Shown piece by piece: positions 2,055 through 62,700 of a stretch of DNA of 64,000 nt (the stretch's first letter is position 1; every line of letters starts with the position of its first letter). The notes below the pieces were generated by a model. It worked only from the letters and a program-made list of their open reading frames with translations, was not told the origin of the DNA and did no database searches. Location of the stretch: positions 32,001 through 96,000 of the IMG/VR virus record IMGVR_UViG_3300037067_023527, one strand, 5' to 3'. The position numbers and the translations under genes were made by a program. This DNA comes from a virus. Taxonomy: Duplodnaviria > Caudoviricetes.

Positions 2055-2885
2055 ATGAGGATTGCTCGAGTCTTCCCGAGAAGAACAAATGCCACTCCCG
2101 TAGACGATTTGGCTTTCGTCGGTGCGCCGGGCCTGTTTCCTCCCGATGTGGAAGAAGTCCATGTTTCTGTCTCTTTCACCTGGGATATCCCCGAAGCGCA
2201 ACGTCTCTCCCGGGCATGGGTGCGCGTGGCCCCAGTCAGAATAGGCGGGCCGGCTTTCAACAGGCGTAGCGGCCAGTTTGTACCGGGTATATACGTGAAG
2301 CCGGGCTACACAATCACTTCCCGCGGCTGCCCGAATAATTGCTGGTTCTGCCGGGTCCCCAAGAGGGAGGGAGCGGTCCGGGAGTATGAAATCTGCCCGG
2401 GACACGATATCCTGGATGACAACCTGCTCGCCTGCAGCCATGAACACATGGAAAAGGTGTTTTCCATGCTGGAATGCCAAAAAAGACGGATCAAATTCAC
2501 CGGCGGTCTTGAGGCGGCGCGCTTCGATGAATGGGTTGGGACAAGAATCAGGAAACTCAATCCGCATCGTTTGTATTTCGCTTACGATACCGAGGATGAC
2601 TGGGAACCGCTACGCCGGGCGGCTGAATTGTGCTGGGATCTGGGTTGGACGCCACAAGCTCATATCGTGATGGCATATGTACTGGTTGGATATCCCAAAG
2701 ACACAGTGCCGGCCGCGACCAGGCGCCTGAATAACGTGGCTCGTCTTGGAATAATGCCAATGGCAATGCAGTGGCGCGACGAATCGGGAGAAATCCGGCC
2801 GGAATGGACCGGTTTCCAGCGCAAATGGGCCCGAGTTGCCATTACTTCTCATGAAATAGATAAATTGAAAGGGGAATCGGTATGA
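2055..2885 (+). CDS. radical SAM protein
   Basis: TSRGCPNNCWFC (CxxxCxxC), LDDNLL, YVLVGY motifs. Confidence 0.88.
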   Translation: MRIARVFPRRTNATPVDDLAFVGAPGLFPPDVEEVHVSVSFTWDIPEAQRLSRAWVRVAPVRIGGPAFNRRSGQFVPGIYVKPGYTITSRGCPNNCWFCRVPKREGAVREYEICPGHDILDDNLLACSHEHMEKVFSMLECQKRRIKFTGGLEAARFDEWVGTRIRKLNPHRLYFAYDTEDDWEPLRRAAELCWDLGWTPQAHIVMAYVLVGYPKDTVPAATRRLNNVARLGIMPMAMQWRDESGEIRPEWTGFQRKWARVAITSHEIDKLKGESV

Positions 2886-3322
2886 AGAAATATGCCATTT
2901 TTCCAGTTTTATTTGTGTTGGTCGTGATCGGGTGTGAAACGGAAAAAGAGGAATTGTCGAACGTCATGACTGAATCCGCCATCGTGGCAGACACCATATT
3001 TATGCCCTCTCAGCACGGAAGCGGAAGCGGTACGACCTACAGCATGAGTTCCGGACATATTGGGATTTCGAGCGTCGACGTGGACATTCCTGAGAAGTAC
3101 GCCATCGTGTTTGAATGCGAACATGGAAAATTTGTGATCGAGCGAATGCCTGACGCTCGGGAAATGTGGAAAAATCTCAGGAAAGGTCAAAGCGTGAAGG
3201 TCTATTACCAGGAGAAATTTCGCAGGATTTACGAGAAGGACAAACAGATCAAGTCTTCCCTGATCGGATACCACTTCATACGGGCTGTTCCCAACAAGAT
3301 GCCGGCAGAATCGGTGAAATAA
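2882..3322 (+). CDS. putative lipoprotein
   Basis: MKK + hydrophobic stretch + VVIG-C lipobox-like. Confidence 0.5.
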   Translation: MKKYAIFPVLFVLVVIGCETEKEELSNVMTESAIVADTIFMPSQHGSGSGTTYSMSSGHIGISSVDVDIPEKYAIVFECEHGKFVIERMPDAREMWKNLRKGQSVKVYYQEKFRRIYEKDKQIKSSLIGYHFIRAVPNKMPAESVK

Positions 3323-4383
3323 TGGACGAGAAAATATGCGCAAACTGCCTTAGCCATCCTGCAGTCCCTGGATTTAAGCTGGGGACGTATGGCTTTTGCA
3401 GTGCAAACTGCGAATCCACTTTCCTGAGGGCCGTTTCGGCGCCTAAAAGGGACGATACCGGGTACAAGCTGGAACCTCGGGTTGCCAATCCGGAAGTTTT
3501 CCAGATCACCGCTGATGCATTCCGCATGAAGCAGTATCTTCGCGACCTGGCTGCAGCATGCGAGGAGAAAGTCGGGCCGGCCGCAAAAGAATCCGTTAAG
3601 ATCGTGGGCGCCGATATCGTGCGTCTGCTTACCACAACCCATGGCGAGAAAAATAACCTGGAGGCGATTGCCTCAGTGACACGCGTTCTTTTGTATATTT
3701 TGGATGAGACCGAAAAGAGGTCGATGCAAACAACCTCTTTAAAACAACTTACGCCTCAAGGAGGAATCCAATGAGCAAAATCCCACATATCACAGTGAAG
3801 TATAGTTGCGCATTGTGCGGCCTGCATCGGGTGGAATGCAATGTCCCGTCGCGGCCGGAGGAAATGAATCCAGACCGATGGCTGGAAAAAGTGTGCGGTT
3901 ATACTCTTGCCGCAGATCATGCCTGCAGATCTCCTCATTGCGAAGCAGAAACTCTGTCAGAGCTGATGATTCCTCTGGATAAAGCGAAAATTGTCGGCCT
4001 GGGTATCGGCAACTGATATGGTCGAAAACACGGGTAAAACACTTTCAGGCGGCACAAGGAAGGCTACAAAGTTCCCGGTTTACATCGGGCACAATAGCCA
4101 GGGTGACGGGTTCTACGTGGCGAGCCGTGAGCCGCTTACCTGGGTGAAACATGCGGTGACCTCCGGAGGGTCTTTTGAGCCGGTCAAGGGGAAAGGTTAT
4201 GCGTTCTCTCCCGGGGAGTGGACCGACATGGAGAATCACACTTTTCTGGCCGCGATGATGCGGGTGGTCATGATGGACCGGAATGAGTGGCGGGAACTTA
4301 TTCGGCCGCGGGGATACCCGACGGTGATCAAGGTGCGGAAATGAGCGAGACGGCTCGGATGGTGGAAAATTCTAAGGAGGACT

Positions 4384-5301: not shown

Positions 5302-5542
5302 GGATGTATGCCTCTATTCAAATGTCCGCGCTGCGGTTTCATCGAAAACACAGCCCTGGGAGAGTACCAGTTCCAGGATATCGTAGATGGTGACGATGGC
5401 ATCGTCCCGGAGATCTGTTCCGAGTGCGCTACTGGGACTTGGCACGGAAAGTTTCCCAAAAAGACTGCCGAGGAGTTGGGATACGTCGAGCTGGAGGATG
5501 GATATTATGGACCGCCCGGAGGATGGAAATGATCGGAGGAGT

Positions 5543-6523: not shown

Positions 6524-6562
6524 TCCATTTTAAGAGCAGCATGAGAAAGGGAGAATTGTGAC

Positions 6563-9338: not shown

Positions 9339-9872
9339 ATGACTGACGCGAACAATGGATTGGCGGAAGTATTCGGAAATTTGGGGTTGTTCAATAAGAG
9401 CGGAGCCCGATTCAGTGGCGATTCCAAGTACCGGTACACTCTTTTCCGTGAGCGCGCCGAAGGTTCTGGAACCGTGAACTTTATAATGCTCAACCCATCA
9501 ACCGCGGATGCTCAAGCCAACGATCCTACCGTCGAGCGGTGCCAACGCCGGGCTTGGGCTATGGGATATAAAAGACTGGTAGTTACAAACATTTTTGCGC
9601 TTCGATCGACAGATCCTAAAAATCTATATTCCGAAGTGGATCCCGTCGGGTTGGATAACGATTATTGGCTTGTTCAGGTGGCCTTAACATCCGACAAAGT
9701 TGTTTGCGCCTGGGGCTCTCATGGGAATTACCGCGATCGCGGGGGACTGGTCGAACGCATGCTTCGAGAGCAACACATTGATTTATGGCAATTGAGGCTG
9801 ACAAAAAAAGGGGAGCCCAGTCATCCATTGTATATTCCCTATAATGAGGAGCCAAAACCATGGATTCTCTAA
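9339..9872 (+). CDS. DUF1643 family protein
   Basis: YRYTL, FIMLNPSTAD, DPT, NIFALRSTDP, AWG, HPLY. Confidence 0.9.
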   Translation: MTDANNGLAEVFGNLGLFNKSGARFSGDSKYRYTLFRERAEGSGTVNFIMLNPSTADAQANDPTVERCQRRAWAMGYKRLVVTNIFALRSTDPKNLYSEVDPVGLDNDYWLVQVALTSDKVVCAWGSHGNYRDRGGLVERMLREQHIDLWQLRLTKKGEPSHPLYIPYNEEPKPWIL

Positions 9873-12967: not shown

Positions 12968-13425
12968 CTCAGTATATAAATCCATCCAAAAGCCAGGAGT
13001 GGGGAACTCCTCAGGATCTTTTTAATACCTTGAATGAGGAATTTCACTTCCAGCTCGATGCTTGCGCGAGCAAGGATATCGCCAAATGCCCGAAGTTCTT
13101 CTCACAGCAGGAGGACTCATTATTGCAACGGTGGGCGTCATCAACATTCTGCAATCCTCCCTATGGGAATTCATTGAAATTATGGGTCCGGAAAGCTTAT
13201 GACGAGGCCCGTCGCGGATGCACCGTGGTAATGCTTCTTCCCGCGCGCACGGATGTGGAATGGTTCCATCGATATTGCTTTGTACCCGGTACGGAAATCA
13301 GGTTTATAAAAGGCAGGCTTGGGTTTGAGGGAGTGCAGGGACGATCTCGAGCGCCTTTCCCCTCTATGATTGTTGTTTTCAGACCCCCGAAGTTGACCAA
13401 AGGTATTGACAAAAAAGCTGTATAG
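12964..13425 (+). CDS. phage DNA N6-adenine methyltransferase (Dam-like)
   Basis: EWGTPQ, LDACA, FCNPPYG, LLPARTD, KGRL.F. Confidence 0.93.
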   Translation: MTQYINPSKSQEWGTPQDLFNTLNEEFHFQLDACASKDIAKCPKFFSQQEDSLLQRWASSTFCNPPYGNSLKLWVRKAYDEARRGCTVVMLLPARTDVEWFHRYCFVPGTEIRFIKGRLGFEGVQGRSRAPFPSMIVVFRPPKLTKGIDKKAV

Positions 13426-13460: not shown

Positions 13461-13670
13461 ATGGATAGCAGAGAGTTGCAGCAAGCCATGCATTCGCTCG
13501 GAGGAATCAGCCAGGGCGAGCTGGCAAAACGTCTCGGAGTGCGGCCGGAGACAGTGCACCGATGGATACGGGGAGTTAAGGGAAAACCCAGGAACGTACC
13601 CGGTCCAGCCGCGATCGCAATCCGGCAATGGATCGACGAGAAAAAGGACCGAGAAAAAGGACGAAAGTAA
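13461..13670 (+). CDS. Cro-like HTH protein
   Basis: SQGELAKRLGVRPETVHRW; RBS GGAGG; TTGACA at 13406. Confidence 0.8.
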   Translation: MDSRELQQAMHSLGGISQGELAKRLGVRPETVHRWIRGVKGKPRNVPGPAAIAIRQWIDEKKDREKGRK

Positions 13671-14358
13671 TCTCGTAGAGCAAGGACCTCCAAATGGACG
13701 AAATTTCTAGAAAACGAGCGGAAAAATTCGGCGATAGCAGGATGTGGAGCCCAGTCGATGCGCTTGAAGACGCGATCGAGACGATTAAGACAAAAGATCT
13801 CAAGGATATCCGGCTGGCAGTTCACTGGTTCGAGGTCCAGCCGGATGGATCGCGAAAACACCATTACACGGCAGCAAATCTAACATTCCCAGAGCACATA
13901 TCTCTTATCCGGGTGGCAGACCACCGATTGATACATGATTGGTTTGGAGATTAAGAGACCAGTTCCAGGAGGCATCATGGCGCAAAGTAAGAAGCCTGGC
14001 GGCGGTTTAGGAGATATGCCACGGATAGACATTGGACTCTTCCTTGAAGAGGTCAAGGCGCATCATTTATCGAAAGCCATCGAATGGAGCGGCCGAGAAT
14101 TGATGTCCAACCCCAAAATAGCGGAAAAGATTACCGGCCTTCTAATGGGGGAGTCGGAACTGACAAAAATCGTTCTGGCGATCGCGGTACAATCTGGAAT
14201 CCAACCTCCCATTGTGCACAACAATATTACGACCGGATTCATCATGGGGATTGCGCTTGCCCTTGAACTTCTAAATGAGAGGGAATCTCTATTCGGCAAC
14301 GTCGATGAAGATGATCCAAAAATAACTCCAGGACCCAAAACTATTCAATAAAAAGTAT

Positions 14359-14387
14359 TGACAGTATGTCAGTGACTATATATATTC
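14359..14387 (+). promoter_or_regulatory. sigma70-type promoter
   Basis: TTGACA-N17-TATATT. Confidence 0.7.
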
Positions 14388-14431: not shown

Positions 14432-14445
14432 TGTACCCGGGTACA
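14432..14445. promoter_or_regulatory. perfect 14-bp palindrome TGTACCCGGGTACA (variant of the dispersed motif)
   Basis: lies between the promoter and the probable Dcm start (14469). Confidence 0.6.
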
Positions 14446-14468: not shown

Positions 14469-15800
14469 ATGATACGCGGAGTCGATCTTTTTTGTGGAGC
14501 CGGCGGTAGTACGACAGGTCTCATGATGGCCTGTAAAGAACTCGGGAGAAAGGTCGACGTGCTCGCGATAAATCATTGGAATATTGCTATCGCTACGCAC
14601 ATGACAAACCACCCGGGATTTCGGCACATGTGCGAAAACCTCGATTCCGTCAATCCTAAAAAGGCAATCCCGGGCGGGAAGCTGGATATTTTACTGGCTG
14701 GCCCAGAATGCACCCATCATTCCAATGCGCGCGGCGGCAAGCCGATGCTGGATCAGAGCCGGGCGAGCGCATGGCACGTTGTCAGATGGTGCGAAGCCCT
14801 GTATGTCCAGGATGTCGTGGTAGAAAACGTGATGGAATTCCAGAAATGGGGTCCTCTCGATCGCAAAGGCAGGCGCATAAAAGAGCGCGAAGGGGAAACC
14901 TTCAAGGCATGGATTGCAGCTCTGGAATCCCTCGATTACCGGGTTGAATGGAAAGTCCTCAATGCAGCAGACTTCGGTGATGCAACAACTCGAAAGCGCC
15001 TGTTTATTAGAGCGCGCAGAGGGGATAAGGCGATTTCGTGGCCAGATCCTTCCAATAATGCGGCATCGTGGCGCCCGGCGCGCGACGTGATTGATTGGAG
15101 TATCCCGGGTCAGAGCATATTCGATCGTAAGAAACCTCTCGCGCCGGCGACGATGGCCAGAATCATGGTTGGATTAAAGAAATTCGGCGGTGAGAAGATT
15201 GAACCCTTCCTCATTGTCTTTCGCAATCACCAAGACGCGAGTGATATCGATCAGCCGATTCCGACCATGACAACATCCGGGGCGAATTTCGGGCTGTGTG
15301 AGCCATTCGTCCTGGGCCAACAGTCTGGGAGTGTAGCCAGATCGGTGCAGAATCCGTTTCCAACTATCGCAACCGGCGGCGCGATCGCCCTCATTGAACC
15401 GTTCCTGGTTGAGTACCACGGGAGCCACAAGGAAAAAAAGGACGGCGACGGCCGTACAATGTCCGTACAACGTCCATTCAAGACCCTTGACACGTCAAAT
15501 CGGTTCGGATTGTGCGAGCCGTTCATGGTGAAGTATTACCGTACCGGTACGGCGTATCCTGTAAGCAAGCCAATGGACACGATCACAGCCAAGGACAGAA
15601 TCGGCTTGGTTGTCCCGGAAATTAATGGCGTGGCCCTGGACATTCGGTTTCGAATGCTTCAGCCCCATGAGTTGGCGGAAGCCATGGGATTCCCAAAGAC
15701 TTACAAGTTTGCCGGCACACGCGAGGCAAAGGTTAGGCAAATTGGTAATGCCTGGTCTGTCAGGACGGCCAAGGCTTTGTGTAAATCAGTTTTACAGTGA
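14469..15800 (+). CDS. DNA cytosine-5 methyltransferase
   Basis: DLFCGAGG, GPECTHHS, ENV, R.RLF, QIGNA; repeated EPF/PTxT segments. Confidence 0.93.
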   Translation: MIRGVDLFCGAGGSTTGLMMACKELGRKVDVLAINHWNIAIATHMTNHPGFRHMCENLDSVNPKKAIPGGKLDILLAGPECTHHSNARGGKPMLDQSRASAWHVVRWCEALYVQDVVVENVMEFQKWGPLDRKGRRIKEREGETFKAWIAALESLDYRVEWKVLNAADFGDATTRKRLFIRARRGDKAISWPDPSNNAASWRPARDVIDWSIPGQSIFDRKKPLAPATMARIMVGLKKFGGEKIEPFLIVFRNHQDASDIDQPIPTMTTSGANFGLCEPFVLGQQSGSVARSVQNPFPTIATGGAIALIEPFLVEYHGSHKEKKDGDGRTMSVQRPFKTLDTSNRFGLCEPFMVKYYRTGTAYPVSKPMDTITAKDRIGLVVPEINGVALDIRFRMLQPHELAEAMGFPKTYKFAGTREAKVRQIGNAWSVRTAKALCKSVLQ

Positions 15801-20796: not shown

Positions 20797-21150
20797 ATGA
20801 ATATTGATTTCATAGACATTCTGATTGCAAGCCTCTGTGTGTGGCGCCTGGCGCACATGATAAAATACGAGGCCGGACCATGGGATATCTTCATCCGGAT
20901 CAGGGAGAGGCTTGGAACTGGAATGCTGGGGAAATTGATGGACTGCATCTGGTGCAGCTCAGTCTGGCTGGCAATAATATATTTTGTACCCGGTACAAAA
21001 TACCTCGTGATCCTGTTGGCAATTTCAGGCTTGGCGATATTACTGGAGGGATTGCATGTCTTGTTGTGGCGGTCAAAAGAGAAAACAATCACTAATTCTG
21101 GCATATCCCCAATTTACCGTGATTTATTTAGGATCAAACCCGACGTATAA
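20797..21150 (+). CDS. DUF1360-like membrane protein
   Basis: VWRLAH, GPWDIF..IRE, L.DCIWCSSVW; hydrophobic segments. Confidence 0.6.
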   Translation: MNIDFIDILIASLCVWRLAHMIKYEAGPWDIFIRIRERLGTGMLGKLMDCIWCSSVWLAIIYFVPGTKYLVILLAISGLAILLEGLHVLLWRSKEKTITNSGISPIYRDLFRIKPDV

Positions 21151-25061: not shown

Positions 25062-25386
25062 ATGCCATCAAAAAAAGGTGAAAGCGATGTATTTATGAAG
25101 GGGATACACGGAATCCGCTGGACCGGGTACAAAGAATCGCAGGACAATGTTTGTCTTATAGGACAATGGGTTGCCATAACAAAGACTGGCAAGGTGGCTT
25201 GGGCCACAACTAATGGAGTGACCTCGATCGGGGTTATGGAACGGGCAGTTGAACGATTCTATATTCCAGACCCGGAATGGAAGCCAATCAACCTATTTTC
25301 CAGCGGAGCGGAAAAAGAGGAAAGAAAACAGCAGACATTGGCTTTGCTCATTAAATTCATCGAAAGTCTTGATCCTAAGGAGTGGC

Positions 25387-31987: not shown

Positions 31988-32392
31988 TGCGGGGATAAAA
32001 ATGCCAGGAATTGTCTTGTCCGCTAATCCGATAGGAACGACTTCACGTCCGGCTCATTTTGAATATTACAACCATTATGACGAGGTAGATCTCGGCTTCG
32101 GAAAAAAGAAACGCGTCCGAACACGCATGCAACGTCACGTACCCGCCTGCGAGGCCGTTATCTTTATTTGCCCTGCTTCCAGATGCGGCAAAAGAAACGA
32201 GCAATCGATTCTGCGCGCCAAGGCGTCTATCGGAGAAACTCTTAGTTTTACCTGTGCAAAATGCGGCCGTGAAATAGAAGTCTCGAAGCCCAAGCCAAAA
32301 CTACAGGCGATCGTTGTACCCGGTATAGAAAAAGCGAAGCCATTCGGATTGGTCGATCCTTCTGGCCGGCCAATTCATTCATAGGAGAGTTT

Positions 32393-44553: not shown

Positions 44554-45221
44554 TGAACGCAAACGATTTAATCAGTCAGATACTCAGAAGGCTGGATGTG
44601 CTTGATCCGCTGGTTCCCATTCACTGGACTAGAGCGGAGATCCTTGTCTTCGTGAACGAAGCAATTGGAGAACTCAATCTCATTGCGTGGGAATTCCAGC
44701 TTACGGCCTCACTGAGCGTCGACGCGACCCACAATGTTTATGACAATCCAGCGACAATTATCGCCCCTATTTCTGTCCGGGATGGAAAGTATTTGCGGCG
44801 CCAAGCGGTATCGGACCTGGATTTTGAAGTCGATTGGGAAAAGACCGCAGAGCAGAAATCCACTTTAAAAAACTGGTCTCCAATTGGATTGAATAAGATC
44901 CTTATTCATCCTCGTCCGCTGGGAGCCAAAACAATATACGTTGAAGGCCTGACGGACCATGCGCCCGTTACGGATGCCGCGGTTGCGTTGCCAGTCAAGG
45001 CTGAATACGAATCTGCGATCGAGGATTACTGTGTCGAGAGAGCTACGTTTAAGGAAGGCGGGCCCGAGCTGCAACAGGTAGGATCTCTTTATCGTTCATT
45101 TCTGAGGAGTGTGCAGGATGCGGCCGGGCGCAATGTGATTCGAATGTACCCGGTATATTCGTTCGGCCAGGTCGACCCGAGTGAATCCCTGAGGCCTCAG
45201 GTTGAGGAAAAACAACAGTGA
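44553..45221 (+). CDS. head-tail adaptor (tail tubular A-like)
   Basis: WTRAEILVFVNEA; IHPRP. Confidence 0.65.
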   Translation: MNANDLISQILRRLDVLDPLVPIHWTRAEILVFVNEAIGELNLIAWEFQLTASLSVDATHNVYDNPATIIAPISVRDGKYLRRQAVSDLDFEVDWEKTAEQKSTLKNWSPIGLNKILIHPRPLGAKTIYVEGLTDHAPVTDAAVALPVKAEYESAIEDYCVERATFKEGGPELQQVGSLYRSFLRSVQDAAGRNVIRMYPVYSFGQVDPSESLRPQVEEKQQ

Positions 45222-46520: not shown

Positions 46521-49500
46521 ATCGAGAAATCGTCTCTGTGCCGATTTCCTTCGCCAACAGTGGCATCATCATCAAGTCCAGTCCGGATGAAATTCCCATT
46601 ACTGCCTATAAGATGCTTTCGAATGCCCAGACTGATCGCGAAAACTCGGTCTCAGTTCGGAAGGGATTTGGACGTTTGAATGCAGGATTGCCGGCGGCGC
46701 CATATTCTTCCTATTATCTGAAGGACTCCGATAATCGACAGTGGAGATATGCCATCACAAATGGCCAGCTTTACGTGGCTCCGATTGTCGACCCAGAAGA
46801 TGCTGCAGTGTGGCCGCTTGCCAGTCATAATTATTTCGGAGCCGTGATAGGAGGGGAAAATCTCTCCGTCGCGACCGATCCCAGGGCTCTTTGGGCAACA
46901 TTCAGTTTGCGCGGCACAGAAACCAAACCATATGCCTTTATGGCCGACGGCACCAAATTCTTGAAGCATTGTGCCGGAATGGCTTCTGCGCGCCGGGTCG
47001 GGATTCCTAAACCGATGAGTCCGATCACCAATGTCGCCTTGTCGAGCGTCACCGATGTTTTGATTGATGCGTGTGAAGACTATACGACTTGGACCGGAGG
47101 AGACTCTTCAAAAACTTCCGCGGCGGATTATCCCTCGATTTGGTGGTACGGGGTTGGAACCTCTCTCGCGCGATGGATTTGGGCAAAATACACTTTTGTT
47201 CTTAATGACGGTACGGAAACCTTTAGCAGTGCAGCCAATTTGCCCAATTATATTCCCAGCGGAAAAACATCAAAGCTTTTCTGGAAAAAAGCCAAATATA
47301 CCTATCACTCTGAATCCACCGCCGGGAACAATGATCCGAATATCACCATCGGAGTCCTCACCTATCCCAATCATTATTTTTCTGATGCCGAATACGCCTC
47401 CGTCCCAGACGGAGTGAGAGTCCGCGGAGTCAGGCTCCAGGCTGGGTCGATGATCGATCGTATTCAGGTATTGTGGGAGTCTAGCGATGGAACTGCTTCG
47501 GATGGTCCTTTTCATGGTGGAGGCGGCGGAGATTTATTCGAGTTCATGCTGGATTTTGATGAATATATTATTGAACTGAAGGGTCGTTACGATACCTACG
47601 TAAATTCGCTCACCATCGTCACAAACAAGCGCGAGTCTCAAAAATATGGCGGAGACGGCGGGACCGCAGATTACAGCGTGACCCTTCCCGCGGGAGATTC
47701 GCTTCAGTCTAAAATGCTGATCGGGTTCACTGGCCGCCATGCCGGAGTGACAGACTTCCAGAACAAATTGACGGCAATCGGAATGGCCACCAGGTATGAC
47801 ACCTACGACAATACGTCTTCTGCTCCAGTCGCCGCAGTGGGCTACAATCTGTATGTCGGAGAAACTCCCAATAGTCTTTACAAAGTAAACGAAGATCCGA
47901 TCGACTTGGCTGATCCTTATTTGGAGCCTCCGGGAGGCTGGGTCTATGGGATCGATCGTCCTCCGATGGCCAATGTTGGCGATCTTTCGAACGATGCAGC
48001 GGGAGAAACAACCAATGCTGTAAAAATTAGTCTCACGGGCGCCGGCAAACTGGGCAGAGCCCTAAAGGCACTCGTTAATGACATTGGATACCCGATCGTC
48101 TCTGATTTCGGGACTATGGACCCGGATGAATCTTTTAAGATTTCAATAAAATTTGCCGATGCCACAGCTTTATCTAACTGTGCTTCTATCCGTTTAAATT
48201 TCGTCTTGAGCGATATCCCGGGAGACACCGGTGACAAATACAATTATATTGCCACCGCGGAAGTGACCGATTTTTCCGGTCATACTCCTGGATCATGGCA
48301 GCAAATTCAAATCTATAAATCTTCCTTTGTTCTGAATAATTACAGTGGAAGCGCACTCATTAATTTGGGTTGGGATACGGTAACAGCCGTTAGCGTCGAA
48401 GTGGTTACAAAAGATCCCGTTGTTGGCGCGGGAACCTGTGTTGTCAGTTTTGACAATATCTATTTTTCCCCGGTCGGAAAATTAAACGGCGCCGATCTTG
48501 AATGGACCTATACCTTTTACAACTCTAAGACCGATACCGAAAGCGATTACGCAGATTCATTTGCCAATACCCTGGGGACCTTGGTCGATAAGGCAGTGGA
48601 ATTGAGTTTCCCTTCGACTCCGCTGACAAATGCCCCTATGGCAAATCCTGACAAAATCAGGATTTACAGAATGGGCGGTACGATTACCCAATTCCAAAGA
48701 GTGGCTGAGATTGACTACGTGGCGGGATTCCCATTCAGTTACGTGGACAACATCGGGGATGAATCCCTTGGGGATGTGCTCGAGACCGACAATCAGCTCC
48801 CGCCGGAAAATGTCGAGGGTGTTGAAATTTTCGATGACCGACTTTGGACCTGGGGAGGCGTTTCCCTTGAAGGAATTGCCGAGCCTGGAAACTGGCTTAG
48901 ATTCTCTAAGGGAGCCAGGATCGAGCACTTTCCGTCTGACAATTACGTTATTGTCGGGTCCGGCAATGAAAAAATCATGCGAGTGTTTGAGCATGATGGG
49001 GAATTGTTCATTTTCACTCTCACTAAGGTTTATCGAATTGTTGGGCAGAATGGAGACTATAAGGCCGTATCGACAGCCGTCAACCAGGGAATCAAAAACA
49101 AATTTGCTGTTTGTCGGGGCGCTCGCGGCCTTTACATGCGCTCCTATGATGGGATTTGGGAATTTCCTAATGGACGAAAAATTTCCGAGCCAATCAACCA
49201 AGTGTTTTTTGGGGAGACCGTCAATGGAATTGAGCCAGTTGCGGCCGATCGGGAAGATGAAGAAGCAATGGCGTTTTGGAATTCCATGGTCTTTTTCTCC
49301 TATTGCGCCACAACCGATGCTTCCATCCGAAACGATCGTACTCTAATTTGGGACACCCAGCATGAGCGTTGGTTTTGGTACATTTACGGAGCCCAAAATC
49401 TCTATCAGGAACCAGAGACAGATCTCCTGATTGGCGCCAACCTCACGCAATGGTACAGCGTTGTGCCCGGTGTACCCGTTACAGTGCGCCGCTCCGGAGC

Positions 49501-50868: not shown

Positions 50869-52620
50869 ATGCCCGGAGAATCCCCTCAGATTGATTTCGA
50901 CCGCAAAGGAACGCTCGCCAACCAGTTTGAAAGACTGAATCAAATACTGAGGAGAATATTCCAGAGATTGAATGAAGTGGAGGCATTGGCTGCCGCTGGG
51001 GGGTCCGGCGGGGGAGGCGGCGGCACAATGGATCATGCCCTGTTGACCAACTTGGGATATGCCCAGGCCGCTCATACTGGATTCACGCCGAGTTCGCGAG
51101 CAATCAATACGACAGCGCCTCTTCAAGGCGGCGGTAATTTAAGCGCAGATCGTACTCTAACCATCCTGCAGGGAGAAGGATCAGGACTGGATGCGGATAA
51201 AGTCGACGGCCATCACGCTTATGAGACGGCTCCGTATTGGGGATTTCCGAATAGAAGCGATTCTCTTATTTCATTCTCCTATCCAACATTTACGATCGCT
51301 CCGGCTGTAACCCAATACGTTTTTTATGTCAATGGGGTGAAGTACACCAAGACAACTTCGTTGACGGCCGACATAACGGATACGGAGGGGATTTGGTTTT
51401 TTTATTTCAACTCCGCCGGCACGTTGGTGGCCAGCCAAACCCTTTGGGAAATAGATCAAATTGTCAGTCTGGCATATCTCTATTGGGATTCAGCTAACAA
51501 TGCCGTCCTGGTTTTTGCAGATGAGCGCCACGGTCCATCAATGGATCAAGTCACCCACAAATACCTGCACGAAACGATTGGTACAAGATTCGAAACCGGA
51601 GTGCTTGTAAGTGGTAATACAGCCGGAGATGGCGATCAGGATGTTCATGCTGAGTTGGGGGTATCGAGCGGATTTATTCACGATGAAGACGTGGAAATCA
51701 ACATTATAGACGATGCTACTCCCACGCCGCCATATCAGCAGATCCTCACTGTCCCAGCTCAGATACCGGTGTTTTATCGTGATGGGGCGGCCACATGGAG
51801 AAAAAAGACTGCCAATAATTTTCCCGTCCTGGAGGGATCATATTTCAGCCCGGCGCGTACCCGGTGCAGTTACAATCAATTCACCGCAGGGGCGTGGACT
51901 CAGACAGAAGTGACCAATCTGGATTTCTTCGCGGTATGGATATTTGCGACCAACGATATCAATACTCCCATTATCGCAATCCTAGGACAAAGAACGGACA
52001 CCACCTACGCAAACGCCCAGAACAATAATTCTTATAATTCTCTTAGCTTTGGCACGATGCCGTTTCAGGAGTTCAAGGTAATTGCCCGGGTCATTTTCCA
52101 GACTGCAAATGGTTATGCCAATGCGCCAAAAGCCAGAATCAGAGAGATTATTGATTACAGAAATTTCGGAACAGTGACAACGGCGGGATTCCCGGCCTCA
52201 ACCTCTCACTCTTCTTTAACCGGTCTTGGGGTTGATGACCATCTGCAATATCTCATTCTTACCGGAGTTCGCCCTATGGCGGGAGCCCTCGGGCCCGCGA
52301 TTATTGCTCTGACCGATGCCGCCACTATTGCGACGGATGCCTCCTTGGGAAATCACTTCAGGGTAACACTAGGAGACAATCGAATATTTGACAACCCGAC
52401 TGGGGCGCATGACGGTCAAATCCTGCGCATAGAATTCAAACAGGATGGGACCGGAGGAAGAACTCTTTCCTGGGGAGCCAATATCATAAAACCATACAAT
52501 GTTCCCGCTATTGTTCTTAGCATCGATCCAAACGTCACCGACATGATCCAGTTGGTTTACAATAGCTCAGAAGACAAATATGTTATAACTGGTTTCCTGA
52601 ACAACATTTACGGGGTTTGA
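50869..52620 (+). CDS. tail fiber protein
   Basis: GSGLDADKVDGHH, HSSLTGL..DDHLQY, LTDAATIATDAS, QDGTGGRTLSW. Confidence 0.8.
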   Translation: MPGESPQIDFDRKGTLANQFERLNQILRRIFQRLNEVEALAAAGGSGGGGGGTMDHALLTNLGYAQAAHTGFTPSSRAINTTAPLQGGGNLSADRTLTILQGEGSGLDADKVDGHHAYETAPYWGFPNRSDSLISFSYPTFTIAPAVTQYVFYVNGVKYTKTTSLTADITDTEGIWFFYFNSAGTLVASQTLWEIDQIVSLAYLYWDSANNAVLVFADERHGPSMDQVTHKYLHETIGTRFETGVLVSGNTAGDGDQDVHAELGVSSGFIHDEDVEINIIDDATPTPPYQQILTVPAQIPVFYRDGAATWRKKTANNFPVLEGSYFSPARTRCSYNQFTAGAWTQTEVTNLDFFAVWIFATNDINTPIIAILGQRTDTTYANAQNNNSYNSLSFGTMPFQEFKVIARVIFQTANGYANAPKARIREIIDYRNFGTVTTAGFPASTSHSSLTGLGVDDHLQYLILTGVRPMAGALGPAIIALTDAATIATDASLGNHFRVTLGDNRIFDNPTGAHDGQILRIEFKQDGTGGRTLSWGANIIKPYNVPAIVLSIDPNVTDMIQLVYNSSEDKYVITGFLNNIYGV

Positions 52621-55282: not shown

Positions 55283-56755
55283 ATGCCTGATGCTCAGGGA
55301 GTATCGTCTGTCGTTGGGGAATTCCTCAAAGGCTACATGGGTCAGACCGCCCAAGAAGAGCAGAAGAAGGTCGAGAAGGTGCGCGGCATCCTGGACATAG
55401 CCGATCGATACCGGCGCATTGCAGAGGATCCGGACGCTTCCGACGTGGAATATAACCACGCCCAGGAGCAATACCAGACCTTTCTCGGCATGGCCGATAA
55501 AGAGTTCAACCGCAGCACCAGCGGTCTCGGCTCCATCATGAAGATCTTCGGTTTCGGCAAAAAAGGCAAAAATGGGACAACTCCATCAATGCCGAGGCAA
55601 TGGTTTCAAAAACCTCCTGAAAAGGGAGCCCCAACCGTCGCCGCGGCAATGCCTCGTCCGGGCTTTATGGGCCCGGAGCCAACTATCCCGCGGGAAGAAG
55701 ATATGCCGGCCGAATTCCGCGGCATTCCCCGTCAGATGTATGCCTCTGTACCCGGTACGGCCGCTCCCGCCCCCATTGCTCCTGTCGCAAATCCGGCGCC
55801 TCCAGACCAATATGCTGGTATGAGTCCAAGATTGGTGAGAAGAGCCCAATTTGCCGACATTCAAGCTGATAAAAACCAGCAGAGACAAATTGAAGCCGCA
55901 AAACAGACTGCGGAAATAAATAAACAAAACCAGCAGGATGTTTACAATTGGCAGCAACAACAGAGGCAGGCGCTGATCAAAGATCAGCTCGATGCATATC
56001 GCGCCAGACCCGAATATGGAACGGATCCCGAAGCCGACAGGCGCATGGAGGATTATATCCAATTTGGCATACAGCCTCGGCAAGAATCATTGCGGACAAA
56101 AACAGAAATAGTGCGCAATGAGGCAAACCAATTAGTCAGACGAACGACAGATTTGAGGAACGGGGAAACTATAAGCGAAGATCCTTATGCCAATGCCAAC
56201 GACGAACCTTTAATTCAGGCAATAATCGAAAACCATAGGGCAAAAGGAGAAACAGTAACGCCTGATCAGGCTTTGGCTGAATTAGGACAAGTTCGGTTAA
56301 GGGGATTGACCTTGACTAATACCGGGAAGGAAGCCGGCATTCAAGCCCAAGCCGCCCTTACTAAATCCAGGCAACAGAGAACGCAATTCCTTAAAGACAA
56401 GGAAAATAATGGAGGAACGCTTACTCCATCCCAGGCTGCCAGCCTGTATAAAGCGGCTAAGGCAAGTGCAATATCTAGATTTAAAGCAGAAGTTAGTGAA
56501 ATGGATCAACTGCAAATGAATCAGGCCACAAAGAATGCCATGATAGCCCGATTTGAAAAAGAGTATGTCGAAGGCGGTAGTGGGCAGGAAGGCATTATGG
56601 CATGGGATGAAATGATAAAACTTGTCAATCCCAATGCCGCGCCTCCGAAAACACCAGAGGAAAAAGCAAAGGCTTTCATTCAAAGCATGGTTGGAGCGCA
56701 AAAGAATAATCCTTCCGCTCCTGCAACGATCAGGCCTGGCAATTTACCCAAGTGA
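55283..56755 (+). CDS. putative ejection protein
   Basis: RBS AGGAGG; Q/A-rich helical with Pro-rich linker. Confidence 0.65.
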   Translation: MPDAQGVSSVVGEFLKGYMGQTAQEEQKKVEKVRGILDIADRYRRIAEDPDASDVEYNHAQEQYQTFLGMADKEFNRSTSGLGSIMKIFGFGKKGKNGTTPSMPRQWFQKPPEKGAPTVAAAMPRPGFMGPEPTIPREEDMPAEFRGIPRQMYASVPGTAAPAPIAPVANPAPPDQYAGMSPRLVRRAQFADIQADKNQQRQIEAAKQTAEINKQNQQDVYNWQQQQRQALIKDQLDAYRARPEYGTDPEADRRMEDYIQFGIQPRQESLRTKTEIVRNEANQLVRRTTDLRNGETISEDPYANANDEPLIQAIIENHRAKGETVTPDQALAELGQVRLRGLTLTNTGKEAGIQAQAALTKSRQQRTQFLKDKENNGGTLTPSQAASLYKAAKASAISRFKAEVSEMDQLQMNQATKNAMIARFEKEYVEGGSGQEGIMAWDEMIKLVNPNAAPPKTPEEKAKAFIQSMVGAQKNNPSAPATIRPGNLPK

Positions 56756-59700: not shown

Positions 59701-62700
59701 CCGATCGATGCCGAATCTTTGTTGCAGAAGATGCCTCCGGAAAACCTGGAGGCTCTTGTCCAGAACGGCACAACCGATGAAGATCTCAAAGCCATCATTG
59801 GGAAAGCCTTTGGCATGCGCGGGGGATGGGGCAATGAAGATGAGGCATTGCCGATTGTTCGTTACAGCGGTGGCCCGCATCCGTTCTTCAATATCAAAAA
59901 GCCTCACACCAAAGAAGAAGTGAAACTCACCGGAAAAAATCTGGTTGAGGCATACCGGAAAACCTTCGGCATACCGCAAGTACAGACTCCGGCCGTGGCG
60001 GAAACCACAGTAACCCCTGAAGCTACTCCGGTAAAACCAAATGGAACAGAAGATGATGGAACTAGTCCGTTTGGTTTTGGGGTCCAAAAGATTGCCGGAA
60101 AAATGCAATTGGCTCTCAGCAAAGAACAGATCGAATCGCTCAAGAAAATGCCTGTAGAAAGAGCGACCCAGATTGTTCAGAATCGAATCGATCGCGCAAT
60201 CGAGTTGGGATCGAACTATCAGGAAAAACTTTCTGATATCCTGCAATCTCTTGCTCCACCAGAAATTACTCCTGCCCAAGTTCCATTTATGATTACAAAA
60301 TTGGATCGTCAGTCATTATTGGATCTCGGGTGGACCAATAAGCAAATTGACGGAATGACGCCCGCCGATGCGCAGACATATCTGGCTCAAAACCAGGGTC
60401 CAGAAGCGGCCACGCCGGCACAAAAAGAAGTAGTTCCAGAAGAATTCGGACAGGCTCCGGAGGCACCAGGGCCTTTGACGGAAACGCCTGTCGTTGAGCC
60501 GGTCGCAACTCCGCCGGCAGAAGCTTCCGATGTTAGACTCGCCAGAAGGATAGCGGAGCATCTGAAATTGGGCGCTGGCATCGATAAAAATGTCTTCTTT
60601 ACCTTTGCCGATGAAGAGTATGGCGGCACCCGGGCTGAAGGCAAGTATGGACCCAGCGAAGCATACGACGCTCTGGAACTGGGCATCAATCTCTACATCC
60701 AGGGGATGGATGATTCTGGTTGGCTCAATGCGGATCTTGAAACTGCGCATAAGACGATCGGAATGCTGCAGGACCTGCAAGCTGATATCGTTTCCCAAAC
60801 AAACCGATCTGGCAATAAGGAATTGCTGCAGCAATTCTCCACCCCTCCGGCCTATGCGTATGCGATCTCCTGGATAGCCAATGTCCAGCCAGGTGATATC
60901 GTCGCCGAGACTTCCGCGGGCACAGGCGATATCGCCCTGCAGGCGCAGAAAATGGGCGGAGAAGTTCATGCGAATGAAATCGATCCTCGCCGGGCGGCGT
61001 TGCTCGAGCAGATCATTCCGAATGTTACGCAATATGATGCGGAACAGATCGGCAACATCCTCCGGAACAAATTAAAGCCGACCGTTGTTGTGATAAATCC
61101 GCCATTCAGCCACGCCGGAACGAGAATGGGCGGCAAGAAAGTCATCGGAATCGATCGGAATCATATCGACGCGGCTTTATCCCTTCTTCAGACGGCCGGC
61201 AGGCTTGTGGCGATTATTGGGGCGCCGTTGCAGGGCGGAGAAACCCTTGGCATGTCGGAATGGCTCGAAAAAACAAGATCAAAATATAATATCAGGGCCA
61301 ATGTCCAGGTTGGCAGGGATGTCTACAAGGGTTATGGCACCACATTCCCGACCCGAGTGCTGGTGATTGACAAAACGGGATCCACGCCCGAGGGGTCGAC
61401 AATAACGAGCAATGTGGAAAATCTCAGTCAGTTAATTGACAATTTAGAGGGAGTGCGCAATGAACGAAAGCCTGCGCCAAAGCCAAGTATTCAAGGCGAA
61501 CCAGTCGCCGCTGGGGCAACTGACGTCCAAGTGCCTGGAACTGCTCCAGGCGGAGGACCCGGACCAATACGTACTGTACCCGTTACAACTGGTCCAGTCG
61601 ATGTTGGAGAACCATCAGGACAGCCTGCCGTTGCTGGTGCGCAAGAACAGGGAATTTCTCCTGAGCCAGGCGGACGTAATGTCGGACTGGGACCCCAGCC
61701 TGGTGCTGGTGCAACTCCTGCAGCCGGAGCCGGGGGAATCGTTGGAGGAGAACGCGAAACAGGCGGCAAAGAGCCTGCAAAACAAGAGCCCGGAGCAGGT
61801 AGGGGAAATATTAGCGGAGAACCTTCTGTTCAGCCTGGCGAAAGGGCGGCCGAGTCTGTTGGGACCGAGCCCAGAGCAGTAGCTCCCCAAAGAAAACTGG
61901 ACGAAAATGTAATTTTCGATCCTTACACTCCCACCAATGTCACCCTAAAGGGAGCGCAGAAACATCCGGCCTCCGTCGTTGAGAGCAGCACGATGGCCGC
62001 AGTCAATTTTCCCAACACCAATTACGTTCCAGACATTCCTGAAAGCCTCATAGCCACAGGAGCACTCTCTGATATCCAATTGGAATTTATCGCCTCTGCC
62101 GGAGACAACCATTCCAGACTGATGCCCGATGGAAGCCGGTATGGAATCTTGCTGGGTGACGGCACCGGAATGGGGAAGGGACGCCAGCTTGCGGGAGTAA
62201 TCCTGGATAATTGGCGCCGGGGAAGGCGCAAGGCCATCTGGATTTCCAAAAACAAAAAGCTTTTTGATGAGACTGTGCGCGATTGGCGTGATCTGGGACA
62301 AAATGATAAACAGGTTTACAACATCAGCAAGTTCGGCGGTGACGCCGAGATCGACATTGATGAAGGGATATTGTATTCGACCTATGACACCCTGAGATCC
62401 TCATCGAGAAATGGGAAAAGCCGGCTTCAACAATTGTCAGACTGGCTGAATAAAGGAGATAAAGAGTTTGACGGCGTGATCGTTTTCGATGAAGCGCATC
62501 TGATGGGAAGCCTTTCTTCTGAGCGCAGCGTAGCAGCTCGCGCGCTTCAGAATACATTTCCCAAAGCCCGCATTGTGTATGCTTCAGCCACTGCAGCAAC
62601 GGAGATTGAGAGTTTGATTTTCGGGCAAAGATTGGGCCTGTGGGGCCCAGGAACTCCTTTCCCAACCGTGGAGGAGTTTGCTGCACAAATTGGCAGCTCT

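What the first reader, a model, noticed from the sequence alone, without database searches (positions are those of the whole stretch)
2279..61587. Dispersed 13-bp palindrome TGTACC(C/G)GGTACA written into coding sequence across the whole window
Seen: ten sites within 1 mismatch, starting at 2279, 13281, 20985 (perfect, extended to a 23-bp palindrome 20980-21002), 25119, 32315, 41539, 45145, 49471, 55747 and 61575. Two-mismatch copies occur at 3454, 13595, 30752 and 51856. Spacer variants occur at 14432 (TGTACCCGGGTACA, just downstream of a TTGACA-17-TATATT promoter), 28095, 9428, 15539 (CCGTACCGGTACGG), 18473 and 36862. A uniform-base model gives ~0.07 expected <=1-mismatch hits in 64 kb (76/4^13 x 64000); the motif was chosen post hoc and scanned by hand. 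Sites fall in unrelated early and late genes, in different frames (VPGT, WTGY, MYPVY, RTRC), spaced ~4-11 kb apart, which points to selection at the DNA level. Inference: a dimeric protein binds the genome at intervals. Analogies are mycobacteriophage L5 stoperators (13 bp, but asymmetric and mostly intergenic) or matS/NBS/SBS-type genome-organising sites. Candidate binders are the HTH genes at 12695 and 13461 (the latter contains a site), the Myb-like gene at 16410, and the C2H2 protein. This is my best candidate for an undescribed system.
Basis: partly seen in the sequence, partly recalled or inferred. Interest (0 to 1): 0.9.

Follow-up and report, generated by a model that had tools for sequence, protein, structure and literature searches.

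The report
Lineage-specific dispersed palindromes in phage
An uncultured ~113-kb phage carries about 20 copies of the 13-base palindrome TGTACC(C/G)GGTACA. Each related phage has its own different palindrome at the same gene junctions, so these are most likely docking sites on DNA for a fast-evolving phage protein whose identity and purpose are still untested.

Summary
All ten sites lie where stated, against 0 in dinucleotide shuffles. The whole 112.8-kb phage has 18 sites with at most one mismatch. Twelve are in coding DNA, against 0.6 in protein-preserving codon shuffles.

Selection acts on the DNA, and a symmetric reader is the best explanation. The main new result is comparative: every relative I fetched whole has its own dispersed palindrome:
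- TGTAAACC-S-GGTTTACA
- TGTGCAC-N2/3-GTGCACA
- TCCAAC-GTTGGA
- TCCRATATYGGA
- GTCTACACGTGTAGAC

These different motifs often sit at the same gene junctions. Across the family the sites are mainly intergenic and start-proximal, not "written into coding sequence".

this HTH fails a covariation test, as does a second HTH family.
- **Better lead:** a diverged HU/IHF-fold gene just outside the window carries a site 15-41 nt upstream of its start codon in six of seven genomes.
- **RNA hairpin role for the core:** not supported.

Binding, function and host remain untested. The closest published parallel is the unexplained 17-bp dyad repeat of Cluster O mycobacteriophages. This scan noted a similar motif before on other DNA (e1-3605929), probably a relative.

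The parts
2279..2291 (.). Site TGTACCGGGTATA (1 mismatch), inside the 276-aa ORF 2055-2885
   Evidence: Not conserved in relative G003.
3454..3466 (.). Weak site GATACCGGGTACA (2 mismatches), inside a gene
9427..9438 (.). Spacer-0 variant AGTACCGGTACA, inside the 177-aa ORF 9339-9872
13281..13293 (.). Site TGTACCCGGTACG inside the Dam-like methyltransferase gene 12964-13425
   Evidence: Kept at the orthologous position in G003 with the centre flipped C to G and the flanks diverged.
13595..13607 (.). Weak site CGTACCCGGTCCA (2 mismatches) inside the small HTH gene 13461-13670
   Evidence: Not a motif in L016.
14358..14386 (+). Sigma-70-like promoter TTGACA-17-TATATT, 11 of 12 consensus matches
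   Evidence: A promoter of the same kind, followed by the site, is also seen in L016.
14432..14445 (.). Spacer-2 variant TGTACCCGGGTACA in the leader, about +46 from the promoter and 24 nt before the start of the C5 methyltransferase gene (14469)
   Evidence: Identical spacer-2 site at the equivalent place in G003; near-identical in L016.
15539..15552 (.). Spacer-0 variant CCGTACCGGTACGG inside the C5 methyltransferase gene
20980..21002 (.). Perfect site TGTACCCGGTACA (20985-20997) extended to a 23-bp palindrome, in the DUF1360-like ORF 20797-21150
   Evidence: Kept at the orthologous position in G003 and L016.
25119..25131 (.). Site TGGACCGGGTACA (1 mismatch), 62 nt into the 116-aa ORF 25062-25412
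30752..30764 (.). Weak site TATAGCCGGTACA (2 mismatches) in the portal gene
32315..32327 (.). Site TGTACCCGGTATA, about 72 nt upstream of the next gene start (32393)
41539..41551 (.). Site TGTAACGGGTACA, 116 nt before the stop of the 566-aa gene 39959-41659
   Evidence: Not conserved in G003.
45145..45157 (.). Site TGTACCCGGTATA, 72 nt before the stop of gene 44553-45221 and about 67 nt upstream of the next start. G001 has its own motif in the same neighbourhood.
49471..49483 (.). Site TGTACCCGTTACA in the middle of the 1447-aa tail gene
51856..51868 (.). Weak site CGTACCCGGTGCA (2 mismatches) in the 583-aa tail gene
55747..55759 (.). Site TGTACCCGGTACG, 469 nt into the 490-aa gene 55283-56755
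61575..61587 (.). Site TGTACCCGTTACA inside the 3998-aa polyvalent-protein gene, which starts at 56767 and runs past the end of the window

Best explanation
The palindrome is a cis-acting site read on double-stranded DNA by a two-fold symmetric, phage-encoded protein. That protein has changed specificity repeatedly within this phage family, and all its sites in a genome have changed with it.

Most sites sit at boundaries of expression units: just after stop codons, in gene leaders, next to ribosome-binding sites, and in the divergent early control region. The likely effect is genome-wide control or organisation of transcription, with bound dimers acting as operators or roadblocks.

Extra copies are tolerated or selected inside long genes. 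Those compared with a relative (G003) are not kept there.

This lies about 3.7 kb upstream of the window. A perfect site is centred 26 nt upstream of its start codon.

Shown: enrichment, DNA-level selection, lineage-specific motifs at conserved positions, and the DNABII fold with its own upstream site. Inferred: protein binding, which protein binds, and the regulatory outcome.
For: 1. Enrichment beyond amino-acid sequence and codon usage.
   - This genome, 13-mer form: 12 coding sites against 0.58 in shuffles.
   - This genome, with spacer variants: 15 against 1.4.
   - Lineage D genome G004: 13 against 1.6.

2. Each relative has its own dispersed palindrome.
   - G003 and L016 share TGTACC..GGTACA.
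   - G005, G006, G007 and G011 have TGTAAACC-S-GGTTTACA (9-11 sites in each complete genome).
   - G001 has TGTGCAC-N2/3-GTGCACA (11 sites; 20 of its 23 GTGCAC hexamers lie in such pairs).
   - G004 has TCCAAC-(0/1)-GTTGGA (19 sites).
   - G008 has TCCRATATYGGA (10 sites).
   - G009 and G012 have further palindromes.
   - Sources.

3. Different motifs occupy the same junctions.
   - Between the stop codon of the orthologue of genome gene 86544-87032 and the ribosome-binding site of the next gene, in three lineages.
   - About 63 nt upstream of the gene orthologous to genome 65939-66877 (possibly the capsid gene; no family match), in two lineages.
   - About 50 nt upstream of radC, in two lineages; in this phage the site lies 52 nt inside radC.
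   - Sources.

4. The core behaves as a double-stranded DNA site.
   - The half-site sequence is conserved while the centre varies.
   - The central C or G shows no strand bias.
   - Sense-strand G.U against A.C mismatches: 35 against 43.
   - The bare motif folds weakly as RNA: -1.9 kcal/mol, and 0 for the spacer-0 form.

5. Orthologous sites at 13281, 14432 and 20985 persist in G003 or L016 while flanks diverge and the centre flips.

6. The DNABII lead.
   - AlphaFold2 model with mean pLDDT 84.
   - The top 33 structural matches are all HU or IHF, with Z up to 7.8 and 71-86 residues aligned at 1.8-3.8 A.
   - PF00216 is hit by 3 of 7 family members.
   - A profile search of solved structures finds HU at E = 0.003.
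   - The gene sits at the divergent early region in all seven complete genomes.
   - It has a motif copy 15-41 nt upstream of its start codon in six of them.

7. Two Xre HTH families are excluded by covariation.
Against: - No binding data of any kind exist.
- DNABII proteins usually read DNA shape, not 12-17-bp words. The arms of this protein are truncated in lineages A and D.
- The central spacer varies by 0-3 bp within one genome. That is unusual for a rigid dimer.
- In the early block the motif caps longer hairpins. Their flanks show compensatory changes and G.U pairs favoured on the sense strand, 8 cases to 3. An RNA structure therefore exists there.
- Several sites abut or overlap ribosome-binding sites or start codons. 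This also fits translational control.
- The sites rarely overlap sigma-70-type promoters.
- G008 has no site upstream of its DNABII gene.
- No DNABII homologue was detected in the four partial genomes G009-G012.
Confidence: 0.5

Rival explanations
1. The element works in RNA. It would be a short hairpin in polycistronic transcripts that a phage RNA-binding protein or endoribonuclease recognises. That would control translation of the next gene or process and stabilise the message between cistrons.
For: - Many sites lie exactly between a stop codon and the next ribosome-binding site, or overlap the start codon.
- 41 of 100 sites lie within 80 nt upstream of a start codon, against 11.4 expected.
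- In the early block the motif caps long stems with compensatory changes and sense-strand G.U pairs, followed by a second hairpin and the ribosome-binding site.
- A variable loop of 0-3 nt is easy for a hairpin to accommodate.
- A KTSC-domain protein is found in all seven complete genomes. From memory, Pfam suggests this domain may bind RNA.
Against: - The conserved part is the stem sequence and the variable part is the loop. Known hairpin-binding proteins show the opposite pattern (established knowledge).
- The core shows no excess of sense-strand G.U over A.C: 35 against 43.
- In G008 the commoner sense form has an A.C mismatch.
- Bare motifs fold at only -1.3 to -3.7 kcal/mol in four of the five lineages, and the spacer-0 form does not fold.
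- Copies inside genes are strongly enriched in two lineages. A translation-start role does not explain that.
Confidence: 0.15
2. The palindromes are binding sites of a host protein, such as a global regulator or nucleoid protein. The motif would differ between relatives because they infect different hosts.
For: - GC content ranges from 42% to 58% across the family, which suggests different hosts.
- Conserved positions with changing words would also follow from host switching.
- Several motifs have TGT...ACA ends, reminiscent of CRP/FNR-type sites (from memory, not tested).
Against: - Motif length and half-site spacing change between lineages from 12 to 20 bp. This fits poorly with one conserved host regulator family.
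- A scan of 2.9 million viral contigs for TTGTACCSGGTACAA found only single hits in 98 stretches, about what I estimate for chance. No unrelated phage shows a cluster of sites.
- The host is unknown, and no prophage relatives were found in reference genomes, so the host genome could not be examined.
Confidence: 0.1
3. The sites are targets of a phage enzyme rather than of a regulator. Possibilities are localised nicks, recombination or replication-restart hot spots linked to the phage Mre11/Rad50-like nuclease or the small Xer-like recombinase, or sequence-specific DNA modification.
For: - The phage encodes an SbcCD-like pair and a 196-aa catalytic-domain-only tyrosine recombinase present in every complete genome.
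- It also encodes three DNA methyltransferases. All three genes carry a copy inside, and one also has a site in its leader.
- Spacing in this genome is more even than random.
- The coding sites compared with G003 are not conserved there, as expected if number matters more than position.
- In Cluster O phages, recombination between repeats has produced insertions and deletions.
Against: - Known phage nick sites are asymmetric (from memory).
- Tyrosine recombinase core sites need a 6-8-bp spacer between arms, and these have 0-3 bp (established knowledge).
- Strong enrichment at gene starts and conserved junctions is not expected for nicks or modification.
- The runs found are stored only as assembled contigs, so molecule ends could not be seen.
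Confidence: 0.1
4. There is no function. The excess would be a by-product of composition, codon pairs or shared ancestry of repeated segments.
For: The motif was chosen after seeing the data. Other palindromes such as GTCGAC are also over-represented.
Against: - Unbiased k-mer ranking recovers the motif first.
- Neither dinucleotide nor codon shuffles reproduce the counts.
- Nine relatives each have a different palindrome or share a lineage's motif, and several sit at the same junctions.
- Flanks of the copies are unrelated, so they are not duplicated segments.
Confidence: 0.03

Closest known systems
17-bp dyad repeats of Cluster O mycobacteriophages (TGTTCGG-N3-CCGAACA; Cresawn et al. 2015, PMC4351075)
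   Same: - A short dyad-symmetric word dispersed through a large siphovirus-type genome.
- The copies divide between intergenic regions, the 5' ends of genes and gene interiors.
- The central spacer shows no meaningful orientation.
- Positions are mostly shared between relatives, with occasional loss by single base changes.
- The authors suspect a dimeric DNA-binding protein; the function is unknown.
   Different: - A different word and an unrelated phage and host.
- 9-24 copies per genome here, against more than 30 there.
- The spacer length varies here.
- Here the word itself differs between related lineages while positions are kept. This is not reported for Cluster O, whose five genomes share one word.
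- A DNABII gene with its own upstream site is a specific lead here.
Stoperators and operators of Cluster A mycobacteriophages (L5 gp71 repressor)
   Same: A 13-bp word at about 20-30 dispersed places, many in short gaps between genes. It is thought to let one protein act on transcription along the whole genome. Different subclusters have different words matched to their repressors (from memory).
   Different: - Stoperators are asymmetric and oriented with transcription, and a monomeric immunity repressor of a temperate phage binds them (from memory).
- Here the sites are palindromic with no orientation.
- No immunity cassette or full-length integrase was seen (only part of the genome was scanned for families), and no prophage relatives were found.
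Transcription factor 1 (TF1) of Bacillus phage SPO1, a phage-encoded HU-family protein
   Same: A phage-encoded DNABII homodimer that prefers a set of sites in its own genome and affects early transcription (from memory). Here a phage DNABII-fold gene sits in the early control region with a motif copy in its own leader.
   Different: TF1 recognition depends on hydroxymethyluracil DNA and on flexibility rather than on a strict palindrome (from memory). No binding has been shown here, and the arms of the protein are truncated in this phage.
KorB OB operators of IncP plasmids, and dispersed SopB/ParB sites of phage N15
   Same: A 13-bp palindrome with a central C or G, present about a dozen times around a replicon and used for global control (from memory).
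   Different: These sites need a ParB-family protein. No ParB N-terminal domain is encoded in this phage or in G001.

Membership tests
Cluster A mycobacteriophage stoperators | Asymmetric site whose orientation follows the direction of transcription | tested here: not met
   The site is a perfect palindrome. The central C or G splits about evenly relative to the sense strand.
Cluster A mycobacteriophage stoperators | Belongs to a temperate phage with an immunity repressor and an integrase | tested here: inconclusive
   Only a 196-aa catalytic-domain-only Xer-like protein was seen. No close relative lies inside the 185,579 reference genomes. The absence of a repressor cannot be shown from sequence.
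ParB/KorB-type centromere or operator sites | A ParB-family (ParB N-terminal domain) protein encoded by the same replicon | tested here: not met
   PF02195 searched in six frames in G000 and G001 gave no match at E <= 0.01. The control genomes were positive.
Cluster O-type dispersed dyad repeats | A short dyad-symmetric word present many times per genome, both between and inside genes, far above chance | tested here: met
   18-24 copies in this genome and 9-19 in relatives. Coding copies number 12-15 against 0.6-1.4 in codon shuffles.
Cluster O-type dispersed dyad repeats | Positions largely shared between related genomes | tested here: met
   Three of the sites compared are kept in G003 or L016. 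Several junctions are shared across lineages even though the word differs.
Cluster O-type dispersed dyad repeats | The same word or a homologous phage (membership in the strict sense) | tested here: not met
   The word is different. The large terminase is below 30% identical to any cultured phage in the collection.
Intrinsic terminators or autonomous RNA hairpins | A stable stem-loop followed by a run of U | tested here: not met
   The bare motif folds at -1.9 kcal/mol, and at 0 for the spacer-0 form. No T run follows the sites. Rfam finds only tRNAs.
Intrinsic terminators or autonomous RNA hairpins | Pairing preserved on the transcribed strand (G.U tolerated, A.C not) | tested here: not met
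   In the core, 35 G.U against 43 A.C. The flanking stems of the early-block copies do meet this criterion, 8 cases to 3.
Localised nick sites (T5, phiKMV-like phages) | A strand break at the word in virion DNA | not testable with these tools
   Only assembled contigs of public runs were available, so no read ends could be seen.
DNABII (HU/IHF) proteins, for the candidate reader at genome 27925-28281 | HU/IHF fold: a helical body plus a beta-ribbon arm | tested here: met
   - AlphaFold2 mean pLDDT 84.
- Top 33 structure matches are all HU or IHF, Z 5.5-7.8, then a drop to 4.7.
- PF00216 is hit by 3 of 7 members.
- Profile search of solved structures finds HU at E = 0.003.
DNABII (HU/IHF) proteins, for the candidate reader at genome 27925-28281 | Binds the palindrome | not testable with these tools
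   The support is positional only: a site 15-41 nt upstream of the gene's start in six of seven genomes.

The most novel reading that the evidence does not exclude
The palindromes are genome-wide docking sites of a sequence-specific phage HU/IHF-fold protein that regulates its own gene. This protein would have re-tuned its specificity at least five times within one phage family, dragging 10-20 sites per genome along with it. That would make it a natural series of DNABII proteins with switchable word recognition, acting as a phage chromatin organiser or global transcription brake.
Probability: 0.2. Interest if true: 0.8.

Novelty: new variant of a known kind. Interest (0 to 1): 0.58.

Why it matters
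Dispersed dyad repeats have been reported in phage genomes for years without a mechanism; Cluster O mycobacteriophages are the clearest case. This family offers a natural experiment. At least five, and probably seven, different palindromes occupy equivalent places in otherwise collinear genomes.

- That pattern separates "which word" from "which place" and shows that a trans-acting reader evolves together with its sites.
- It gives a short list of testable readers. A diverged HU/IHF-fold protein comes first, and two HTH families are already excluded.
They could also show what a large virulent-looking phage gains from marking its genome every 5-10 kb.

If the sites turn out to be ordinary operators of an unremarkable repressor, the interest is moderate.

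Tried and rejected
- **Close relatives among cultured phages:** megablast of 20 kb found nothing. By protein, the large terminase is below 30% identical to any cultured phage.
- **Host identification:** the terminase profile against 185,579 reference genomes gave only matches at 30% identity or less, so there is no host and no prophage form.
- **ParB/KorB and sigma factors:** PF02195 and PF04542 are absent.
- **Known RNA families:** only five tRNAs were found.
- **Literature search for the exact words:** only unrelated tRNA, 7SL RNA and primer sequences. A search for follow-up work on Cluster O repeats found no functional study.
- **Sigma-70 promoter association:** only the leader site at 14432 and three sites 108-134 nt upstream of early promoters. 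Most sites are not at promoters.
- **Self-BLAST for longer repeats around the sites:** nothing.
- **Public sequencing runs:**
  - Holders are landfill, groundwater and wastewater metagenomes, kept only as assembled contigs.
  - No RNA holder is listed.
  - Laying four runs on 2001-22000 gave variants, but the table is truncated (803 differences not shown). Conservation at the sites could not be scored and no molecule ends are visible.
- **Viral-contig scan for TTGTACCSGGTACAA:** 98 single hits, about what I estimate for chance.
- **Looking up the contig behind L016:** not held, so only 22 kb of that relative was used. One further relative had no DNA available.
- **DNABII homologues in the partial genomes G009-G012:** none found at E <= 0.01.
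- **Pfam and PHROGs on the proteins flanking the early control region (153 aa and 225 aa):** no hits.
- **Considered and dropped:** an N4-type hairpin promoter. The giant protein is a polyvalent helicase-type protein, not an RNA polymerase.
- **Considered and dropped:** a LexA or CRP box. This was a resemblance recalled from memory only, and the spacing does not fit.

Full report
**What the window is.**
- The window is bases 32001-96000 of a 112,783-bp IMG/VR phage contig. Its 127-bp terminal overlap is probably the assembler's k-mer, so the assembly is probably circular.
- GC content is 49.6%.
- Nearly all genes in the window are on the + strand. A block on the minus strand lies at genome 13-28 kb, and a divergent control region lies at about 27.75-28.3 kb.
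- Recognisable genes:

| Gene | Location |
|---|---|
| Large terminase | window 26248-28230 |
| Portal | window 30119-31987 |
| 1447-aa tail protein | window 46517-50860 |
| 3998-aa polyvalent protein (Strawberry-notch helicase and LPD38 domains) | starts at window 56767, runs past the window end |
| DnaB | genome 1005-2339 |
| Two helicases | genome 14634-17568 |
| Mre11/Rad50-like pair | genome 105460-109702 |
| Three DNA methyltransferases | genome 3738-4709; window 12964-13425; window 14469-15800 |
| RadC | genome 25520-26335 |

- No cultured phage is close: the terminase is below 30% identical.
- Public runs that hold the sequence are landfill, groundwater and wastewater metagenomes.

**The observation.**
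- Genome-wide there are 4 perfect copies, 18 within one mismatch and 26 within two.
- An unbiased ranking of all 8-mers and 10-mers puts pieces of the motif first.
It gives 0.58 +/- 0.65 coding sites (maximum 3 in 1000) against 12 observed. With spacer variants included it gives 1.4 against 15.
- The conserved core is GTACC/GGTAC. The half-sites are separated by 1 bp in 11 exact copies, by 0 bp in 5 and by 2 bp in 1.
- Gaps between sites are more even than random, with a coefficient of variation of 0.59 (P = 0.006). In the relatives this trend is not significant.

**Where the sites lie.**
- About a third are not in genes. Three of the four perfect copies lie in or beside the minus-strand block and its control region.
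- The copy at 14432 lies in a leader about 46 nt downstream of a strong TTGACA-17-TATATT promoter. A similar promoter and the site recur in a relative in which the downstream methyltransferase gene is missing.
- Two early-block copies (genome 20699 and 24047) cap long hairpins. Each is followed by a second small hairpin and the ribosome-binding site.

**The family comparison, which changes the picture.**
- Terminase homologues define a large family of phages of about 100-115 kb. I fetched seven IMG/VR relatives whole and several more in part.
- Relatives with 78-79% identical terminase (G003, L016) carry the same half-sites.
- More distant relatives lack that word and each have their own:

| Genomes | Palindrome | Sites |
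|---|---|---|
| G005, G006, G007, G011 | TGTAAACC-S-GGTTTACA | 9-11 in each complete genome |
| G001 | TGTGCAC-N2/3-GTGCACA | 11 (20 of 23 GTGCAC hexamers are in such pairs) |
| G004 | TCCAAC-(0/1)-GTTGGA | 19 |
| G008 | TCCRATATYGGA | 10 |
| G009 | GTCTACACGTGTAGAC | a few copies |
| G012 | 20-mer TGTCGTACTCGAGTACGACA | a few copies |

- G004 also shows coding enrichment, with 13 sites against 1.6 in codon shuffles.
- Pooled over eight genomes, 51 of 100 sites are intergenic (about 12 expected). In addition, 41 of 100 lie within 80 nt upstream of a start codon (11.4 expected).

**Different words, same places.**
- In three lineages, the gap between the stop codon of the orthologue of genome gene 86544-87032 and the next gene consists of the local palindrome plus the ribosome-binding site. 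In this phage that gap has no site.
- In two lineages the local word sits directly after the stop codon of the gene before the orthologue of genome gene 65939-66877. That is about 63 nt upstream of its start. This gene may encode the capsid protein, but it has no family match.
- In two lineages the word lies about 50 nt upstream of radC. In this phage it lies 52 nt inside radC.

A word that changes while the place stays implies that all sites in a genome co-evolve with one reader.

**DNA or RNA?**

For the core, the evidence favours double-stranded DNA:
- The half-site sequence is conserved and the centre is free.
- The centre shows no strand preference.
- Among mismatched copies, G.U on the sense strand is no commoner than A.C: 35 against 43.
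- In G008 the commoner sense form carries an A.C mismatch.
- The bare motifs are very weak RNA hairpins, at -1.3 to -3.7 kcal/mol in four of the five lineages.

For the flanks of the early-block copies the reverse holds:
- Stems extend by 4-11 pairs of unrelated sequence.
- G.U pairs favour the sense strand, 8 cases to 3.
- G005 and G007 differ by compensatory double changes.

My reading is that a DNA-level word has been placed where it costs least or acts best. A palindrome fits at the tip of an existing intercistronic RNA hairpin. Inverted uptake sequences doubling as terminators in Neisseria and Haemophilus are an analogous case (from memory). An RNA-level role at ribosome-binding sites is not excluded, and I rate it at 0.15.

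**Conservation and turnover.** Between this phage and G003 or L016, with flanks about 70-76% identical, three sites are kept with the central base flipping between C and G. These are the sites in the Dam gene, in the 14432 leader and in the DUF1360-like ORF. The late-gene sites that could be compared are not kept, and G003 has sites of its own elsewhere.

**Who reads it?**
- No ParB and no sigma factor is encoded.
- A second Xre family, found next to the control region in the relatives, has an identical helix-turn-helix in G001 and G004, whose motifs are unrelated. Both families fail covariation.
- The HTH at window 12695 is seen only in lineage A and cannot be judged.
- A profile built from the first gene beside the divergent control region finds a homologue at that place in all seven complete genomes. 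In this phage it is an ORF my first gene call missed, at genome 27925-28281.
- Its model (pLDDT 84) matches HU and IHF across the whole chain. The top 33 hits reach Z 7.8, followed by a gap. PF00216 and a profile search of solved structures agree weakly.
- In six of seven genomes a copy of the local palindrome lies 15-41 nt upstream of this gene's start codon. In this phage the copy is perfect, centred at -26, and its right half forms a TACAAT hexamer. That looks like autoregulation.
- This is positional evidence only. HU-family proteins are not known for reading long words, and the beta arms are truncated in lineages A and D. I give this assignment about 0.2 overall.

**Comparison with what is known.**
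- The nearest published case is the 17-bp dyad repeat of Cluster O mycobacteriophages. It has 34 copies in Corndog, divided between intergenic regions, gene starts and gene interiors. Positions are mostly shared, a dimeric binder is suspected, and the function is unknown (PMC4351075).
- L5-type stoperators work similarly in outline but are asymmetric and oriented. KorB/ParB sites need a ParB protein, which is absent. SPO1 TF1 is the precedent for a phage HU-family protein with preferred sites in its own genome (from memory).
- This scan has noted similar features on other DNA. One of them, e1-3605929 (GTSCAACGTTGSAC in a phage of about 104 kb), matches the lineage D word seen here in G004 and is probably a relative.

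**Verdict.**
- It is best explained as a network of DNA sites for a symmetric phage protein that co-evolves with them. The sites concentrate at expression-unit boundaries.

Noticed in passing
whole genome G000; also G001, G003, G007: TGTACA is completely absent: 0 copies against 14-28 expected in G000. It is also absent from three relatives, while G004, G005, G006 and G008 have 4-13 copies. GGTACC is also under-represented (8 against 22). This may reflect avoidance of a host restriction site.
   Followed up: partly
whole genome G000 and relatives G001, G005, G007: A second palindrome is over-represented across lineages. GTCGAC occurs 54 times against about 30 expected. CGTCGACG is counted 22 times over both strands against 1.7 expected, and it is also enriched in G001, G005 and G007. 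Unlike the main motif, this word is shared between lineages.
   Followed up: no
L014:7925-8281 (genome 27925-28281, about 3.7 kb upstream of the window): An unannotated 118-aa HU/IHF-fold gene lies in the divergent early control region, with the perfect palindrome 20 nt upstream of its ATG. Homologues sit at the same place in all seven complete family genomes.
   Followed up: yes
L014:1-8300 (genome 20-28.3 kb, minus-strand early block): The gaps between early genes repeat one architecture: a long GC-rich hairpin about 25 nt after the stop codon, a 5-bp hairpin, then GAAAGGAGA and the ATG. Only some of the long hairpins carry the palindrome at the tip. The same module occurs in relatives, with compensatory changes.
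   Followed up: partly
window 56767 to beyond 64000 (genome 88767-100763): A single 3998-aa ORF carries a Strawberry-notch-type helicase (AAA_34 and Helicase_C_4) and an LPD38 domain. It is a 'polyvalent protein' of the kind packaged by phages and conjugative elements. It contains two or three copies of the motif.
   Followed up: partly
window 21812-23367: A cluster of five tRNA genes.
   Followed up: no
window 14469-15800 compared with L016:1206-1600: The C5 DNA methyltransferase gene looks like an insertion between a conserved promoter-plus-palindrome leader and the downstream small genes. Relative L016 has the leader but not the methyltransferase.
   Followed up: partly
L013:13180-13770 (-) and L013:13785-14465 (+): A 196-aa tyrosine recombinase with only the catalytic domain (Xer-like) lies beside a divergently transcribed 226-aa protein of no known family. 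Both are present in every complete genome of the family.
   Followed up: partly
L014:1430-1891 (-): A 153-aa early protein carries a domain like the C-terminal domain of the RNA polymerase alpha subunit (PF03118, E = 5e-11). It may modulate or mimic host transcription.
   Followed up: no
window 33878-33939, and the same junction in relatives: A conserved non-coding stretch (consensus around CTGAYGGACWTCGGGAAA) lies upstream of the gene at window 33939-34877, which may encode the capsid protein, across lineages. In lineages B and D the local palindrome sits directly in front of it.
   Followed up: no
L014:7768-7850 (genome about 27768-27850): The early control region also holds another inverted repeat, TGTGACA-N11-TGTCACA. 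Relatives have GTGAA-N5-TTCAC at the equivalent place. This may be a second operator type.
   Followed up: no
contig ends of G000: The 'direct terminal repeat' is exactly 127 bp. This looks like an assembler k-mer overlap of a circular assembly, not a true terminal redundancy.
   Followed up: partly
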